From assembly GCA_019454415.1 (NCBI GenBank), contig JACFOI010000003.1, forward strand, positions 14,361 to 78,360: a stretch of 64,000 nucleotides of DNA. Direction: 5' to 3'. This document shows, in pieces, positions 19,764-26,104 of this stretch. The notes beneath the pieces were generated by a model. The model was not told the DNA's origin and did no database searches. It saw only the letters and a program-made list of their open reading frames with translations. This stretch comes from Patescibacteria group bacterium (GTDB taxonomy: Bacteria; Patescibacteriota; Microgenomatia; UBA1400; PJMF01). How positions within the stretch are numbered: position 1 is the stretch's first letter; each line of letters starts with the position of its first letter. The position numbers and the translations under genes are program-made.

Positions 19764-21522
19764 GCACAGCCATGAATGCTTCCTGGTTGAGCTGAACTTT
19801 CCCGATCTCCTTCATCCGTTTCTTGCCTTTGGCCTGTTTCTTGAGGAGCTTCTGACGACGGGTAACGTCTCCACCATACAGATGTGCCGTCACATCTTTG
19901 CGGTAGGCTTTGATCGTCTCTCGAGCAATGACCTTACCGCCGATGGCAGCCTGAATCGGAACCTCAAACTGTTGCCGGGGAACGACTTCTTTAAGGCGTT
20001 TGACGAGTGCTCGACCGATCTTCTCGGCATTTTCCCGAACCACGATCACTGACAAAGCATCGATCTGCTCGTGCTGGACAATAATGTTCAACTTCACTGC
20101 GTCCACCGGGACATAGCCGGTGACGTCATACTCCAACGAGGCAAACCCTGAGGAAACTGACTTTAAGTGGTCATGGAAGTGAACGATAATCTCCGCCAGT
20201 GGCAGCTCATACTCAATCCGAACCCGCGTCCCGACATCCTGCATGCTCAACAGCTTGCCACGGTGATCCTCAGCCAGCTGCATCACTGCTCCCAGGTAAC
20301 TCTTGGGTGTAAACAGAATCGCATGTGTCATCGGCTCTTTAATCTGACGAATGGTAGCAGGGTCTGGCATCTCGGCCGGGGTTTTGACCACCATCTCAGT
20401 TCCGTCCGTCCGCTCCACTTCATAGGTAACTGATGGTGAGGTGGCGATTAGCTCCAGATTGAACTCACGTTCCAGGCGTTCACGGACAATTTCGGCATGC
20501 AAGATACCCAGAAAACCAACTCGCAAACCGTTTCCCAGCGCGGGAGAGTGGGTCCCACTGAAACGCAGAGCTGCGTCATGGAGAGAGAGCTTCGCCATCG
20601 CATCTTGCAGCAAGACAAAGTCATCACCGTCAATTGGATAAAACTCCATATAGACCATCGGTAGTGGCTCTTTATAGCCCGGAAGCCGTGTCACATGATC
20701 TGCTGCGCTAGTAGTGGTAATTGTGTCTCCGACAGTCACCTGACTAACTTCTTTCAGGCCTGTACAGATGTACCCCACTTCCCCTGCTTCCAGACGGTCG
20801 GTCGGTGTCATATGAGGGGTGAAAACACCCAGCTCGATCGGCAAAAAGTTGGCCTTGGTGGCCATCAGCTGCAGCTTCTGTTTGTCCAGTACGCCATCAA
20901 TCACTCTGATATAGGCGATCACACCCTTGTGCTGGTCAAACTGGGAAGTGAAGACAAGAGCGCGTAGCGGCGCATCTTTCTTCCCTTGCGGTGGCCGGAT
21001 GTACTTGGTGACAGCCTCCATTAGTGCTTCCGTGTTCTGACCCGTCTTGGCAGAAACAGCCACGATCTTCTGTTCCTCGACGCCGAAAAGCTCCATCAGC
21101 TCCAGTTTGGCTGCGTCAACGTCGGCAGAGGGAAGGTCAATCTTGTTGATAACGGGGATAATATCGAGTCCGAGTTCTTTGGCTTTCTCGTAATTGGAGA
21201 GAGTCTGGGCTTGGACTCCCTGAGTTGCATCGACCACCAGCAGCGCTCCCTCACAAGCAGCCAGGGAACGACTCACTTCATATCCAAAGTCAACGTGTCC
21301 AGGGGTGTCGATCAGGTTTAGGATCGTACCGTGGTACTCCATCCGGACTGGGGCAAGTTTGATGGTGATTCCCCGTTCTTTCTCGATGGGATTACTGTCC
21401 ATCAAGCGCTCGGTAAACTCACGCTGAGAGACAGTGTGGGTGAGCTCCAACAAACGATCGGTTAACGTCGTTTTGCCGTGATCGATGTGCGCGATGATTG
21501 AAAAGTTTCTGATATCTGGCAG
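19753..21522 (-). CDS. lepA: translation elongation factor 4 (LepA)
   Basis: Full LepA similarity. Conserved G1 motif IRNFSIIAHIDHGKTTL lies upstream of the ORF-track start and in frame. Only 13 sense codons separate it from the rpsT stop, with no ATG/GTG/TTG, so a CTG at 21520-21522 (giving M-PDIRNFS) is the likely initiator. Confidence 0.85.
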   Translation of the reverse strand: MPDIRNFSIIAHIDHGKTTLTDRLLELTHTVSQREFTERLMDSNPIEKERGITIKLAPVRMEYHGTILNLIDTPGHVDFGYEVSRSLAACEGALLVVDATQGVQAQTLSNYEKAKELGLDIIPVINKIDLPSADVDAAKLELMELFGVEEQKIVAVSAKTGQNTEALMEAVTKYIRPPQGKKDAPLRALVFTSQFDQHKGVIAYIRVIDGVLDKQKLQLMATKANFLPIELGVFTPHMTPTDRLEAGEVGYICTGLKEVSQVTVGDTITTTSAADHVTRLPGYKEPLPMVYMEFYPIDGDDFVLLQDAMAKLSLHDAALRFSGTHSPALGNGLRVGFLGILHAEIVRERLEREFNLELIATSPSVTYEVERTDGTEMVVKTPAEMPDPATIRQIKEPMTHAILFTPKSYLGAVMQLAEDHRGKLLSMQDVGTRVRIEYELPLAEIIVHFHDHLKSVSSGFASLEYDVTGYVPVDAVKLNIIVQHEQIDALSVIVVRENAEKIGRALVKRLKEVVPRQQFEVPIQAAIGGKVIARETIKAYRKDVTAHLYGGDVTRRQKLLKKQAKGKKRMKEIGKVQLNQEAFMAVLER

Positions 21523-21537
21523 ATTCGTGAGAACAGC

Positions 21538-21858
21538 TTACTTCTTCGTAGTTTTTTTGGCCGTCTTCGCTTTGGCTGCTTTAGCTTTTGCCTTTGGGGC
21601 AGCTTTTGGGGCTGACTCGGCAGGGCTACTGGCTTTTTTGGCCAGTTGGCTCTTCATCCGAGCTGCTTTTTTGCGATGAATAATATGGCGTTTAACGGCT
21701 TTGTCGATGGCTGAGAAAGCGTTGCTAAGGTTTGATGGTTCAGCCTTTTTCTTAGCTGCATCAACAGCAGTTTTCAGGCGGGAACGAACCGGAGTATTCA
21801 CTTTGGCCTTGCGTTTGCTGACTTGTAAGGCTTTCTTAGCGTTTCGAAGAATTGGCAT
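21538..21858 (-). CDS. rpsT: 30S ribosomal protein S20 with Lys/Ala-rich C-terminal extension
   Basis: MPILRNAKKALQVSKRKAKVNTPVRSRLKTAV matches the S20 N-terminus. C-terminal roughly 35 aa KAAPKAKAKAAKAKTAKKTTKK (histone-H1-like). AAAGGA SD. Confidence 0.85.
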   Translation of the reverse strand: MPILRNAKKALQVSKRKAKVNTPVRSRLKTAVDAAKKKAEPSNLSNAFSAIDKAVKRHIIHRKKAARMKSQLAKKASSPAESAPKAAPKAKAKAAKAKTAKKTTKK

Positions 21859-21910: not shown

Positions 21911-22018
21911 ACACTTCTTGGGAGGGGGTTATTGCCTATTCTGGACGCAGTAGTGGGTACCTGTGCCGGGAGTTCTAAAAATACATCTGAAAGAACCCGT
22001 AGTATTTCCTGTCCCAGT

Positions 22019-22468
22019 TTAACCTGCACAGTTGCCGTTCACTTTTTCGAGAGGCGCACTGACGCAAAATCGAGTCTGAGGATTTGCCCCATCTGCTCCG
22101 TAATAATTCTGTGACATTGAGCGAATCTGGTATACATAAGTGGTGTTATTAATTGGATCAACTGGTGTCATCCCAGAGGGGAAATAATTTCCTATAGCTA
22201 CCGTTGCCGAAGACAGGTTCCCAGCAGCATAGGGATATTCACCGTTTGTTGTATAGTACTGCTCCAGTGCTTTACTAGCTGCATCCACATCAGCTCTTCT
22301 TTTGGCATCTCGAGCGTTTTTCTGCGTGTTAGAAAACGCCACAATTCCAGCTGCCATGACTATTCCCATAATGGCTACTACTACCATCAGTTCAATCAGT
22401 GTAAATCCTAAAAGACGAAATGCGACGAGCGTACGCGACGAGGTGTGTTGCTCAACAGTCTTATCATA
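22019..22468 (-). CDS. type IV pilin-like protein (prepilin), start codon undetermined / possible frameshift
   Basis: Class III signal RLLG|FTLIELMVVVAIMGIV is encoded in frame upstream of the ORF-track ATG (22387). Coordinates are stop-to-stop. No ATG/GTG/TTG in frame upstream. An ATG-initiated short ORF MIRLLSNTPRRVRSSHFVF* sits in the +1 frame and would fuse if the A4 run at 22410-22413 were A5. Confidence 0.6.
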   Translation of the reverse strand, partial: YDKTVEQHTSSRTLVAFRLLGFTLIELMVVVAIMGIVMAAGIVAFSNTQKNARDAKRRADVDAASKALEQYYTTNGEYPYAAGNLSSATVAIGNYFPSGMTPVDPINNTTYVYQIRSMSQNYYGADGANPQTRFCVSAPLEKVNGNCAG

Positions 22469-22614
22469 TCATTCTTTAGATTGCTCTGTCAACCTTTTTT
22501 ATTAATAGACTCAAACGTTACCAAGTCAGAGAACTCTCTCTTTTTCAGTATAGCAAAAAGCGAAACGCATAGTTCCGCATCTACCGATTCAAAATTACGT
22601 TAAGATATAGCTGT

Positions 22615-24306: not shown

Positions 24307-24370
24307 TTTTCTGCCTGACAACAATCCTATTCTTGGTCTCTAGTTGAACTGTGTGTACAATGGAAATCGA

Positions 24371-24940
24371 ATGAAGAAGCCTGCCAATATCAAGGTTAAT
24401 TTGCTGCCGAAGGATCCTTTCCTCAGTACACCTGTAGGGAAGCTGTTGCAGTGGGCCTTGAGCATTGGTCGGTATCTGGTGGTCTTTACTGAATTGGTAG
24501 TGATCATCAGCTTTGCCAGCCGTTTCACGATTGACCGGCAAATCACCGACTTGAACGTCGCCATTCTCCAGAAAGAAACAATTATCGATTCCTATGGCGA
24601 CCTCGAGCAGAACGTCCGCAACGTCCAGAAAAAGATCGAGACTTATCGACAGGTCGAACAACAGGAGAATGTAACTGATATTTTCCCGGTATTAACTGAA
24701 GTTACTCCTCCTGACGTGGTGCTGACAGATCTTCAGATGCGTCCAGGCCGCGTCACTTTGACCGGGATTACTCCTTCAAACGTTTCATTAGGAATTCTGA
24801 TCAATAACTTACAAGTATCCGGACGGTTTAGTGATATCTCGGTTGAACGTATTGGAACTGCCAAAGATACGAATAGCGGATTAGGCTTCAAGATCGAAGC
24901 AAACGTCAGGAAAGTAGCAACCACAAATGCCAACCAGTAG
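24371..24940 (+). CDS. pilN: type IV pilus assembly protein PilN-like
   Basis: N-terminal IKVNLLPKD (the INLLP signature), then a single TM, then a coiled-coil/ferredoxin-like periplasmic part. Confidence 0.65.
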   Translation: MKKPANIKVNLLPKDPFLSTPVGKLLQWALSIGRYLVVFTELVVIISFASRFTIDRQITDLNVAILQKETIIDSYGDLEQNVRNVQKKIETYRQVEQQENVTDIFPVLTEVTPPDVVLTDLQMRPGRVTLTGITPSNVSLGILINNLQVSGRFSDISVERIGTAKDTNSGLGFKIEANVRKVATTNANQ

Positions 24941-25595
24941 AAGTCGACAACTGACGACCATGCTCCTCCAGTTCTATGACCGGCCAATTGCCAAGGTTTC
25001 GCTGGAGCTGTTCTTCACCATCAGTGCGGTGATTATCTTTGCCGTGTTTGCGATCCGCCCGACTCTGCAAACCATGGGGACATTGATCAAAGAACTCGAA
25101 GACAAACGTGCCCTCAATCAGCGGCTCGCCCAGAAAGTCGCTGCGCTCTCTACTGCACAAACCCAGTATGAAGCAGTCAGAGAGAGGATCTCTCTGTTGG
25201 ATGAAGCCATTCCGCCGACCCCCCAGTTTGAGAAAGCCCTACTGATCATCGAAAAGTTGGCAAGTGAAAGCCAGCTGACCATCATTAACCTGCAAGCTAA
25301 GGAAGTCCCCAAAGAGCCTGATCCTGCAGAGGACGTTCCTTTTGAGCAAAAAGAACGAGCGACGCGATCGATCGTTCTGACTGTGACCGGTGACTATCCG
25401 ACCATTCGTCAGCTGATTGAAAATATTCAAGCTCAGCGGCGGGTATTGATCGTTGATACTGTGGTCTTCTCAGTCGTGGAACAACGGGGCAAGAAAGTTC
25501 TGCAAGCTGCCATCACTGTCAACGTACCGTTCTTCGCACCGGACTTAACTAAGCCGGCAGATCCGAGCCCGACACCTGATGACATAACACCATAA
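24927..25595 (+). CDS. PilO-like pilus assembly protein (TM + coiled coil)
   Basis: Cytoplasmic stub, a single TM (FFTISAVIIFAVFAI), a long coiled coil, and overlap with pilN end. Topology and size match PilO. Confidence 0.45.
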   Translation: MPTSRSRQLTTMLLQFYDRPIAKVSLELFFTISAVIIFAVFAIRPTLQTMGTLIKELEDKRALNQRLAQKVAALSTAQTQYEAVRERISLLDEAIPPTPQFEKALLIIEKLASESQLTIINLQAKEVPKEPDPAEDVPFEQKERATRSIVLTVTGDYPTIRQLIENIQAQRRVLIVDTVVFSVVEQRGKKVLQAAITVNVPFFAPDLTKPADPSPTPDDITP

Positions 25596-25597
25596 CT

Positions 25598-26104
25598 ATG
25601 AAATCACAGCTTTCGCAACTCCAGAAAAAACAGACACTCCTGAGGATTTTTATCTTTACGTTGGTGACGATCATCGTTTGGGTGGGTGTCACTCTGCTGC
25701 GCACTCAACAAGAAACTGGAATTCGGCCAGAGCTGAACAAAAAGGCAGAGGCACTCAACCCGAATGTGAGTGCCGAGACTCTAGATCAAATTGAACAGAA
25801 ACGAGCCTTCACTGATGCAGATTTGTCTGACTTTCCAATCTACTCGATCGTGACCCTCAAAACCGGTGAGCAGCAGTTGGTCGTGTTCTCAGCTTCTGAC
25901 AAAGCCCGTCGTGAAGTGACGCTGGAAAGCGGCACTCAGCCGCCAACCTCTTCCGTCCCACCGACTACTCTGGAAACGACTGATCAAGGTCCAACAGGCC
26001 CGGTCGAAAGCACTGTGACAGTCGAGAACTCTTCAAGCGTGGCTCCAGGGGCTCAACCGGTTTCTCCACCAACGGAGTCAGTGCCTCCAGCAACCGTACC
26101 GTAA
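25598..26104 (+). CDS. small anchored protein with Ser/Thr/Pro-rich C-terminus (possible PilP-like)
   Basis: N-terminal TM. C-terminal PPTSSVPPTTLETTDQGPTGP... low complexity. Confidence 0.35.
   Translation: MKSQLSQLQKKQTLLRIFIFTLVTIIVWVGVTLLRTQQETGIRPELNKKAEALNPNVSAETLDQIEQKRAFTDADLSDFPIYSIVTLKTGEQQLVVFSASDKARREVTLESGTQPPTSSVPPTTLETTDQGPTGPVESTVTVENSSSVAPGAQPVSPPTESVPPATVP

What the first reader, a model, noticed from the sequence alone, without database searches (positions are those of the whole stretch)
22019..22468. Type IV prepilin gene with no usable start codon: homopolymer frameshift or non-canonical initiation
The prepilin cleavage site and hydrophobic helix (RLLG|FTLIELMVVVAIMGIV) are encoded in frame upstream of the first ATG, but no ATG/GTG/TTG occurs between them and the upstream in-frame stop. 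A short ATG-initiated ORF in the neighbouring frame (MIRLLSNTPRRVRSSHFVF*) would join precisely, giving ...HFVFLG|FTLIEL, if the A4 run at 22410-22413 were A5. This is the signature of either a homopolymer sequencing error, a phase-variable or slippery-run-controlled pilin, or a pseudogene. Pilin genes are classic phase-variation targets.
Basis: seen in the sequence. Interest (0 to 1): 0.55.

Follow-up and report, generated by a model that had tools for sequence, protein, structure and literature searches.

The report
Startless pilin genes with frame-setting repeat
This pilin gene from an uncultivated Patescibacteria bacterium really has no in-frame start codon, and so do its sister copies in every related assembly found; the likeliest reason is an on/off switch set by the copy number of a 13-base repeat in the leader, not the short A-run or a sequencing error.

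Summary
On the minus strand, the prepilin motif RLLG|FTLIELMVVV lies upstream of the first ATG (22387). No ATG, GTG or TTG lies between it and the in-frame TGA. A short ORF in another frame (ATG 22467, stop TAG 22410-22408) would fuse to it if the A4 run were A5.

The A-run explanation is not supported. Ten alleles from at least six samples cover three paralogous pilin loci, and all have exactly four T. All share a near-identical 5' module of about 100 nt: TTGACA, 18 nt, TGnTATGAT, the short ORF, then a 13-nt tandem unit (CTCGTCGCGTACG).

- **Repeat count.** Eight alleles have one unit and two have three. Only two or five units would put the ATG/TTG in frame, giving MIRLLSNTPRRVRSSRTLVAFRLLG|FTLIEL. 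No such allele was found.
- **Not pseudogenes.** The coding regions are under purifying selection (pN/pS 0.05 and 0.24).
- **Recombination.** One cassette has recently recombined into a pilin gene that has a normal start.

Best reading: a family of translationally silent, opa-like contingency pilin genes. This is inferred, not shown. The window copy also carries a premature TAA (22021-22019), where four other sequences of this locus have CAA.

The parts
22547..22555 (-). Conserved TG-n-TATACT island (extended -10-like), just downstream of a terminator-like hairpin (22578-22560). It may be a distal promoter whose transcript would include ATG 22467.
   Evidence: Alignment A1 shows TTTG[CT]TATACTGA conserved at all three loci, although the sequence around it has diverged.
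22463..22492 (-). Proximal promoter-like site: -35 TTGACA (22492-22487), 18-nt spacer, TG-n-TATGAT (-10 hexamer 22468-22463).
   Evidence: scores it 11 of 12 with an extended -10 TG. It is invariant or nearly so in all alleles. No experiment shows that it is used.
22408..22467 (-). Short ORF ATG..TAG (MIRLLSNTPRRVRSSHFVF*). It is out of frame with the pilin. It would be the leader-peptide ORF if the repeat had 2 units.
   Evidence: The ATG lies inside the predicted -10 hexamer.
22453..22455 (-). TTG in frame with ATG 22467, 7 nt after the -10 hexamer. Candidate start of a leaderless mRNA.
   Evidence: Related pilins with normal starts show the same geometry. In L015 the -10 ends at 63 and the ATG is at 72. 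In L013 the -10 ends at 602 and the ATG is at 611. The role of the TTG is inferred.
22422..22442 (-). 13-nt tandem unit CTCGTCGCGTACG (22442-22430) plus a partial unit CTCGTCGC (22429-22422), making 1.6 copies. It has no stop codon in any frame. This is the proposed frame-setting repeat.
   Evidence: It is unique in the window. L006 has 3.6 perfect copies. Unit counts across alleles are 1 or 3. In silico, n=2 and n=5 are in frame.
22410..22413 (-). T4 run (A4 on the plus strand).
   Evidence: It is exactly 4 in all 10 alleles.
22391..22408 (-). Prepilin peptidase site and N-terminal motif: G-1 (22408-22406), F1 (22405-22403), T2, L3, I4 and E5 (22393-22391).
   Evidence: PF07963. The T2 and L3 codons differ between loci only by synonymous changes: ACA CTG, ACC TTA and ACA TTG.
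22019..22408 (-). Pilin coding frame from G-1 to the stop used in this MAG. The annotated product MBW7943992.1 (122 aa) starts at ATG 22387.
22019..22021 (-). Premature TAA, specific to this MAG. The other locus-A sequences have CAA (Gln).
   Evidence: L001, L014, and P0122 and P0123.
21929..22018 (-). Cut-off C-terminal 29 codons plus the original stop (TGTGNTTGSFRCIFRTPGTGTHYCVQNRQ*). They include the family's conserved C-terminal Cys pair and the ..YCxxNRQ end.

Best explanation
The gene belongs to a small family of type IV pilin paralogs in one uncultivated Patescibacteria lineage. At least three loci exist: A beside murJ/rpsT (this window), B after pnp, and C after rpoC. A fourth is probable.

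Each copy has its own promoter-like module, followed by a start codon that is out of frame with the pilin: ATG 22467, or the leaderless-type TTG 22455. A 13-nt tandem unit lies between the start and the prepilin cleavage site. Because 13 is not a multiple of 3, the number of units sets the frame. One or three units leaves the pilin untranslated (OFF). Two or five units fuses an Arg-rich 21-25-residue leader to G|FTLIEL (ON).

The unit number changes either by slippage or by gene conversion of the 5' module between the paralogs. So the family would work like Neisseria opa genes: constitutively transcribed, translationally phase-variable, and recombining.

- **Shown:** the anatomy, the unit-number polymorphism, the frame arithmetic, purifying selection, and recombination.
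- **Inferred:** that the promoter and start codon are used, that the 2-unit state occurs in cells, and that the switch is fast enough to matter.

The window's own copy is also truncated by a nonsense codon. In this MAG it may be defective even if switched on.
For: 1. **Same arrangement everywhere.** All 10 alleles from independent assemblies show the split, with T4 invariant.
2. **Variable repeat.** The 13-nt unit is a perfect tandem repeat, 3.6 copies in L006. At locus C the count is 1 in L010 and 3 in L006 and L012.
3. **Frame arithmetic.** In silico, n=2 and n=5 give MIRLLSNTPRRVRSSRTLVAFRLLG|FTLIEL. n=0, 1, 3, 4 and 6 are out of frame. The unit is open in all three frames.
4. **Selection on the coding regions.** Locus B, L005 vs L009: pS 0.072, pN 0.0039. 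Locus C: pS 0.077, pN 0.018. Between paralogs dN/dS is about 0.17-0.20. The T2 and L3 codons change only synonymously, so the pilin frame is read from before T2.
5. **Conserved 5' module.** It is nearly identical between paralogs whose synonymous sites are saturated, and it is mosaic between loci. L010 and L012 differ at 2 of 915 nt downstream of the repeat, yet differ in unit number, unit sequence and promoter SNPs. The module therefore turns over much faster than point mutations accumulate.
6. **Promoter geometry.** The promoter-like site scores 11 of 12 with an extended -10. The TTG sits 7 nt after the -10, matching ATGs 8 nt after the -10 in related pilins with normal starts.
7. **No RNA element.** The leader has no Rfam match and no more RNA structure than shuffled sequence. 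This fits a translated leader rather than a structured regulatory RNA.
8. **Leader length.** Leaders of 20-28 residues occur elsewhere in the family.
Against: - No 2-unit (ON) allele was found among the 10 alleles. No protein with the predicted leader exists in the 5.8-billion-protein collection. With about 6 independent observations and random phase, this has a probability of about 0.07-0.1. That is weak evidence, but it points the wrong way.
- Copy number is low (1.6-3.6 units), so slippage should be much slower than in classical contingency loci.
- ATG 22467 lies inside the predicted -10 hexamer. Use of TTG as a leaderless start is unproven.
- The in-frame state at n=2 has a 1-in-3 chance of being coincidence.
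- A position-weight score of the residues before G-1 did not favour this frame over the alternatives.
- Some alleles share ancestry. Two contigs (L012, L017) start inside the repeated module, so parts of the mosaicism could be assembly chimeras.
Confidence: 0.45

Rival explanations
1. Silent donor cassettes, as in pilS/pilE. The startless loci are never translated where they sit. They serve as reservoirs whose variable central region is copied by gene conversion into pilin genes that have a normal start codon.
For: - Pilin P0125 (locus L013) has a normal start (METYRFLPGRRG|FTLIEL) and its own promoter. It is about 99.7% identical to locus B over a central stretch of about 345 nt with sharp borders, but only 16-86% identical in the flanks.
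- All 10 alleles are OFF.
- Purifying selection on donor cassettes is expected.
- Gene conversion between the loci is visible.
Against: - Unlike pilS, each copy keeps a complete N-terminus from G-1, a strong conserved promoter-like module and a short ORF. A pure donor needs none of these.
- Only one mosaic was found among 126 homologs.
- The recipient sits next to DUF2958 and Replic_Relax genes, which suggests a mobile element. It was not shown to share a genome with loci A-C.
Confidence: 0.2
2. Unconventional decoding makes the 1-unit and 3-unit states productive. Ribosomes translating the short ORF would shift into the pilin frame at U UUU AGG A. In n=1 this is -1 or +2, with tRNA-Phe at UUU and UAG in the A site. 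In n=3 it is +1 at UUU-AGG. In both cases the tRNA would re-pair on UUA with GGA next. A variant of this idea is initiation at a non-canonical codon.
For: - Selection on the coding regions persists while the loci stay at 1 unit in diverged strains.
- In both out-of-frame phases a UUU codon of the T4 run is followed by a slow codon: the UAG stop, or AGG, the least-used Arg codon at 4.1 per 1000.
- T4-AGG is invariant.
- A second gene in the window, lepA, also lacks a canonical start in four assemblies, so unusual initiation does occur here.
Against: - There is no X XXY YYZ heptamer.
- The -1 re-pairing (UUU to CUU) and the +2 re-pairing (UUU to UUA) each mismatch at one position.
- No stimulatory structure was found; fold z-scores are +1.5, -0.3 and +1.2.
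- Two different shifts would be needed for n=1 and n=3.
- The perfect +1 slip in n=1 leads to a dead-end frame (RIYTD*).
- No CTG or ATH codon lies in the pilin frame upstream of F1, and ACG is absent from locus B.
- No Shine-Dalgarno-like sequence lies upstream of G-1.
Confidence: 0.13
3. Decaying pseudogenes. The family lost its start through a 13-nt deletion that spread by gene conversion, and it is now being eroded.
For: - The window copy has a second lesion, TAA for CAA, which removes 29 residues including a conserved Cys pair.
- All alleles are OFF.
Against: - pN/pS is 0.05 at locus B and 0.24 at locus C since the strains split. By my own hand calculation, not a tool result, the binomial P is about 3e-4 and about 0.01.
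- All other copies have intact ORFs.
- The promoter module is conserved: 0 differences in about 95 nt between L005 and L009, where about 7 would be expected at neutral divergence.
Confidence: 0.1
4. Homopolymer sequencing or assembly error (true A5), or A-run slippage as the switch.
For: One extra T would join the two frames exactly.
Against: - The run is T4 in all 10 alleles. They come from at least six samples, four data sources and three loci.
- A 4-base run is not hypermutable. This rests on established knowledge of slipped-strand mispairing.
Confidence: 0.03

Closest known systems
Neisseria opa genes: CTCTT pentamer repeats in the signal-peptide coding region, multi-copy family, inter-locus recombination (reviewed in PMC4534519)
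   Same: - A tandem repeat whose unit is not divisible by 3 lies between the start codon and the mature protein, so copy number sets the frame.
- Several paralogous loci each have their own promoter.
- The loci exchange sequence by recombination.
- Most copies are OFF in any one genome.
   Different: - The unit is 13 nt, not 5.
- Only 1.6-3.6 copies are present, against roughly 7-28 in opa (from my own knowledge).
- The protein is a type IV pilin, not an outer-membrane adhesin.
- The host is a Patescibacteria/CPR bacterium.
- No ON allele and no switching have been observed.
Neisseria pilE/pilS pilin antigenic variation by gene conversion (PMC4534519)
   Same: - There are multiple non-expressed pilin copies.
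- One documented transfer moved a variable central cassette, bounded by short conserved sequences, into a pilin with a working start.
   Different: - pilS copies lack a promoter, a ribosome-binding site and the N-terminal coding region. These copies keep all of them and lack only an in-frame start.
- No expression locus was shown in the same genome.
Streptococcus gallolyticus pil1 phase variation: GCAGA repeats in an upstream leader-peptide ORF coupled to transcription attenuation (PMC3894217)
   Same: - A variable tandem repeat sits inside a short ORF upstream of a pilus gene.
- The repeat number changes where that ORF ends.
   Different: - No terminator lies between the short ORF and the pilin.
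- The pilin has no start codon of its own, so attenuation alone cannot turn it on.
- Pil1 is a sortase pilus, not a type IV pilus.
Neisseria pilC poly-G tract in the signal-peptide region, a homopolymer frameshift switch (PMC4534519; details from my own knowledge)
   Same: A frameshift switch in the leader region of a pilus-associated gene.
   Different: The homopolymer here has only 4 bases and is invariant.

Membership tests
Type IV pilin / class III signal peptide protein (PF07963 N_methyl) | G at -1, F at +1 and E at +5, followed by a hydrophobic helix | tested here: met
   RLLG|FTLIELMVVVAIMGIV. PF07963 matches at E 2.4e-6 and PF08334 at E 1.7e-4. About 400 homologs, named by their sources as prepilin-type or type II secretion system proteins.
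Type IV pilin / class III signal peptide protein (PF07963 N_methyl) | A translated leader peptide with a start codon upstream of G-1 | tested here: not met
   No ATG, GTG or TTG lies in frame between the TGA and G-1 in any of the 10 alleles.
Type IV pilin / class III signal peptide protein (PF07963 N_methyl) | Complete C-terminal domain with the family's conserved Cys pair and ..YCxxNRQ end | tested here: not met
   The window copy stops at TAA 22021-22019, 29 codons early. The feature is met in L001, L014 and L017.
Translational phase variation by a coding tandem repeat (opa type) | Tandem repeat, unit not a multiple of 3, located between the start codon and the mature protein | tested here: met
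   A 13-nt unit at 22442-22422, downstream of ATG 22467 and TTG 22455 and upstream of G-1 at 22408.
Translational phase variation by a coding tandem repeat (opa type) | Copy number differs between strains at the same locus | tested here: met
   Locus C has 1 unit in L010 and 3 units in L006 and L012. L010 and L012 are otherwise 2 of 915 nt apart.
Translational phase variation by a coding tandem repeat (opa type) | Some copy number gives an open frame through to the protein | tested here: met
   In silico, n=2 and n=5 are in frame with no stop codon.
Translational phase variation by a coding tandem repeat (opa type) | ON alleles exist in nature | tested here: not met
   0 of 10 alleles. The predicted leader has no match in the protein collection.
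Translational phase variation by a coding tandem repeat (opa type) | Reversible switching within a population at high frequency | not testable with these tools
   This needs read-level data or culture. The low copy number (1.6-3.6) predicts slow slippage.
pilS-type silent pilin cassette | Lacks a promoter, a ribosome-binding site and the 5' coding region | tested here: not met
   A promoter-like site scoring 11 of 12 is present, and the N-terminus from G-1 is complete.
pilS-type silent pilin cassette | The variable segment is copied into an expressed pilin gene | tested here: inconclusive
   One clear mosaic, L013 vs locus B. It is unknown whether both lie in the same genome, and the direction of transfer is unknown.
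Programmed ribosomal frameshift site | Slippery heptamer (X XXY YYZ), or a prfB-like shift site that leads into the productive frame | tested here: not met
   The sequence is GUC UUU UAG GA. The perfect +1 slip leads to RIYTD*. The productive -1 or +2 shift requires a mismatch.
Programmed ribosomal frameshift site | Downstream stimulatory RNA structure | tested here: not met
   The folds are no more stable than shuffled sequence, with z-scores of +1.5, -0.3 and +1.2. No Rfam hit.
Leader-peptide attenuation switch (S. gallolyticus pil1 type) | Terminator between the repeat-bearing short ORF and a structural gene that has its own start | tested here: not met
   The short ORF overlaps the G-1 codon. 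No terminator is predicted there, and the pilin has no start of its own.

The most novel reading that the evidence does not exclude
The 1-unit and 3-unit states are not OFF. In this reading the invariant U UUU AGG A sequence acts as a recoding site. It would funnel ribosomes from either out-of-frame leader ORF into the pilin frame: +2 or -1 at UUU-UAG, and +1 at UUU-AGG. These pilins would then be made without any in-frame start codon. Such a two-directional frameshift or hop site would be a new kind of site. It could be linked to whatever lets lepA in the same genome do without a canonical start.
Probability: 0.1. Interest if true: 0.85.

Novelty: new variant of a known kind. Interest (0 to 1): 0.6.

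Why it matters
Patescibacteria (CPR) bacteria are tiny and mostly episymbiotic. Type IV pili are thought to be central to how they attach to hosts and take up DNA (my own knowledge).

I found no paper linking phase variation, or frameshifting, to pilins in this group. If confirmed, this family of pilin genes would show that contingency-locus strategies known from host-adapted pathogens also operate in uncultivated environmental symbionts. The genes are kept intact by selection, silent in every assembly, share a recombining 5' module, and carry a frame-setting 13-nt repeat.

There is also a practical point for annotation. Gene callers truncate these genes to start at M7 and label them hypothetical protein or GspG.

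If the genes are instead expressed in the state seen here, they would reveal an unknown way of starting or recoding translation.

Tried and rejected
- **TGA recoding (codes 4 or 25) to extend the frame upstream.** Rejected. TGA ends 31 of 82 long ORFs and the standard code gives long ORFs throughout.
- **Genome-wide loss of canonical starts.** Rejected. I ran Pfam on 10 other stop-to-stop ORFs whose first canonical start comes late. None has a domain upstream of that start. Only lepA does.
- **A structured RNA or riboswitch in the leader.** No Rfam match at E up to 10, and no more structure than shuffled sequence.
- **Scoring which frame gives the more pilin-like leader.** I built a weight matrix from 99 family leaders. 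All candidates scored between -3.6 and -0.3, against a family mean of 6.4. Inconclusive.
- **Other gene calls that start at MVVVAI.**
  - P0104 (locus L007) really has the ATG leader MYPPKKRNAHHKAG.
  - P0116 (locus L008) has a GTG leader (MPKSG).
  - P0002 (locus L002) has ATG MSREG.
  - These are gene-caller miscalls, not further examples.
- **Searches for more alleles.**
  - Two exact-pattern scans of the species-representative genomes found nothing.
  - Two scans of viral contigs found nothing.
  - The one metagenome scan gave 4 loci.
  - DNA for P0057 and P0126, which belong to the same MAG, could not be retrieved.
- **A hop from UUU to the F1 UUU codon.** It lands in frame but removes G-1, so the product could not be processed. 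Rejected on biological grounds.
- **Suppressor tRNA for TAA.** No tRNA genes in the window or in 11 loci. Untestable here.

Full report
**1. The observation**

On the minus strand the pilin frame reads TGA-YDKTVEQHTSSRTLVAFRLLG|FTLIELMVVVAIMGIV. It contains no ATG, GTG or TTG before ATG 22387, which encodes M7 of the mature protein. A second frame holds ATG 22467-22465 .. MIRLLSNTPRRVRSSHFVF .. TAG 22410-22408. The plus-strand A4 run is at 22410-22413, and one more base there would join the two frames.

The N-terminus matches PF07963 and PF08334. The protein has about 400 homologs, which their sources name as Patescibacteria prepilin-type or type II secretion system proteins. Those homologs are 140-180 residues long, have leaders mostly 6-12 residues long, and end in ..YCxxNRQ.

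- ATG 22467 lies inside the -10 hexamer of a strong promoter-like site. The site is TTGACA, 18 nt, TG-n-TATGAT, and it scores 11 of 12.
- The ORF ends at a TAA (22021-22019), after which 29 more pilin-like codons follow in frame.

**2. Source and surroundings**

The 122-residue product is NCBI MBW7943992.1, from a MAG named "Patescibacteria group bacterium" with H3C70 locus tags. Its neighbours are murJ (divergent), pilN, pilO, rpsT and lepA. The genetic code is standard: TAA, TGA and TAG all end long ORFs.

**3. Related sequences**

Exact-protein look-ups and one metagenome scan gave nine further alleles. They fall into three paralogous loci:

| Locus | Position | Alleles |
|---|---|---|
| A | next to murJ/rpsT | window, L001, L014, L017 |
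| B | between pnp and deoC | L005, L009, L011 |
| C | after rpoC | L006, L010, L012 |

L010 and L011 lie on the same 356-kb contig, so the loci coexist in one genome. A fourth N-truncated pilin call, P0057 (H3C70_00870), comes from the window's own MAG, but its DNA could not be retrieved.

The three pilins are only about 55-60% identical, and their synonymous sites are saturated (pS about 0.7). Even so, all ten alleles share an almost identical 5' module of about 100 nt. It runs from AAAAAG-TTGACAG through the short ORF to GGATTTAC. All ten lack an in-frame start, and all ten have exactly T4.

This rules out a random homopolymer error. It also makes the A-run an unlikely switch.

**4. What varies**

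The module contains a 13-nt tandem unit, CTCGTCGCGTACG, followed by a partial unit CTCGTCGC. In the window this is 22442-22422. Eight alleles have one full unit. L006 and L012 have three (TRF reports 3.6 perfect copies).

Because 13 mod 3 = 1, the unit count sets the frame. Rebuilding the window allele in silico with 0-6 units shows that 2 or 5 units give MIRLLSNTPRRVRSSRTLVAFRLLG|FTLIELMVVV. With 0, 1, 3, 4 or 6 units the gene is out of frame. The unit has no stop codon in any frame.

L010 (1 unit, GCGCG variant) and L012 (3 units) differ at only 2 of 915 nt downstream of the repeat. They nevertheless differ in unit number, unit sequence and promoter SNPs. The module is also a patchwork of variants shared between loci. 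It therefore changes much faster than point mutations accumulate, at least partly through gene conversion between paralogs. One caveat is that L012 and L017 begin inside the module, so some joins could be assembly artefacts.

**5. The genes are not dead**

| Comparison | Synonymous differences | Non-synonymous differences | pS | pN |
|---|---|---|---|---|
| Locus B (L005 vs L009) | 8.5 | 1.5 | 0.072 | 0.0039 |
| Locus C (L006 vs L010) | 8 | 6 | 0.077 | 0.018 |

Over the same divergence, the roughly 95 nt from TTGACA to G-1 at locus B are identical.

The T2 and L3 codons differ between loci only synonymously: ACA CTG, ACC TTA and ACA TTG. Selection therefore sees the pilin frame from upstream of T2. 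This argues against initiation at the conserved in-frame ATT (I4) or at M7.

**6. Where translation could start**

The pilin frame upstream of F1 has no CTG or ATH codon. ACG is missing at locus B. AAG lies 3 nt after the -10 hexamer. No Shine-Dalgarno-like sequence lies upstream of G-1.

The leader has no Rfam match and no more structure than shuffled sequence.

Related pilins with normal starts (L013, L015) have their ATG 8 nt after a TACGAT -10, which implies leaderless mRNAs. In the window, TTG 22455 sits 7 nt after the -10 and is in frame with ATG 22467. Whichever of the two is used, the frame logic is the same.

**7. Recombination with a started pilin**

P0125 (L013) has the leader METYRFLPGRRG, its own promoter, and a DUF2958 gene upstream. 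It is about 99.7% identical to locus B over a central stretch of about 345 nt with sharp borders, and divergent outside it. No other such mosaic was found among 126 homologs.

**8. Interpretation**

The best-supported model is a family of opa-like contingency pilin genes. They would be transcribed from a conserved module, translationally OFF in the consensus state, and switched ON when the 13-nt unit number becomes 2. That change could come from slippage or from conversion of the module.

Against the model:
- No ON allele or ON-type protein was found.
- The copy number is low.
- Use of the start codon is unproven.

The rivals are silent donor cassettes (supported by the mosaic, weakened by the conserved promoter and complete N-terminus), recoding at U UUU AGG A, and decay. 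The weight-matrix test of leader quality was inconclusive.

The window copy has an extra nonsense codon that is absent from L001, L014, P0122 and P0123. This particular copy may therefore be defective.

**9. Comparison with known systems**

- **opa (PMC4534519).** It works most like opa, with a repeat in the signal-peptide region. It differs in unit length, copy number, protein class and host.
- **pilS/pilE (PMC4534519).** It shares cassette transfer, but not the truncated architecture.
- **S. gallolyticus pil1 (PMC3894217).** It shares a repeat in a short upstream ORF, but has no terminator and the pilin has no start of its own.

I found no report of phase-variable pilins in Patescibacteria.

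**10. Verdict**

The proposed homopolymer mechanism is wrong. The likely mechanism is a new variant of a known kind, and it remains unproven.

Noticed in passing
window 21454-21540 (minus strand); also L001, L014, L017: lepA has no canonical start codon either. Its P-loop N-terminus (..NLPDIRNFSIIAHIDHGKTTL) is encoded in frame directly after the rpsT stop TAA (21540-21538), with no ATG, GTG or TTG before it. rpsT and lepA share one frame, separated only by that TAA. Homologs start 2-10 residues before IRNFSII, so CTG 21522-21520 (MPD|IRNF) is the likeliest start. The arrangement is identical in four assemblies. Gene callers start lepA 17-45 codons too late, which removes the P-loop.
   Followed up: partly
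window 22019-22021; L002 3455-3469: In-frame TAA occurs twice where relatives have Gln (CAA). In the window it is NCAG-TAA-TGTGN, with CAA in L001, L014, P0122 and P0123. In L002 it is YYCA-TAA-NRQ-TAG, where homologs end YYCAQNRQ. With the rpsT-TAA-lepA junction this makes three places where reading through TAA would give a sensible protein. They may simply be C-to-T nonsense mutations. No tRNA genes were available to test for a suppressor.
   Followed up: partly
L002 796-3972; L013 1-1150: Close relatives of these pilins with normal start codons (MSREG|FTLIEL and METYRFLPGRRG|FTLIEL) sit directly after a DUF2958 gene. In L002 they are also near Replic_Relax and an OLD-family nuclease, which suggests a plasmid or integrative element. 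One of them carries the central cassette of chromosomal locus B almost unchanged.
   Followed up: partly
window 22547-22578 (minus strand): A second conserved island, TTTG[CT]TATACTGA (extended -10-like), lies about 85 nt upstream of the TTGACA and just after a terminator-like hairpin. All three pilin loci keep it, although the spacer between it and the main module has diverged.
   Followed up: no
window 22429-22436; loci B and L010: The repeat unit exists in two forms, ..GCGTACGC.. and ..GCGCGCGC... The TA-to-CG double change keeps the 8-nt palindrome. This could point to a DNA-level binding site, or it could be chance.
   Followed up: no
protein P0057 (NCBI H3C70_00870), not in the window: A fourth pilin of the same MAG is also annotated from MVVVAIIG, so it lacks the G|FTLIEL motif in its annotation. 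It may be a fourth startless paralog. Its DNA could not be retrieved.
   Followed up: no
window 24344-26104: pilN and pilO follow murJ with no recognisable pilM between them. The next ORF (25598-26104, 168 aa) has no Pfam match.
   Followed up: no
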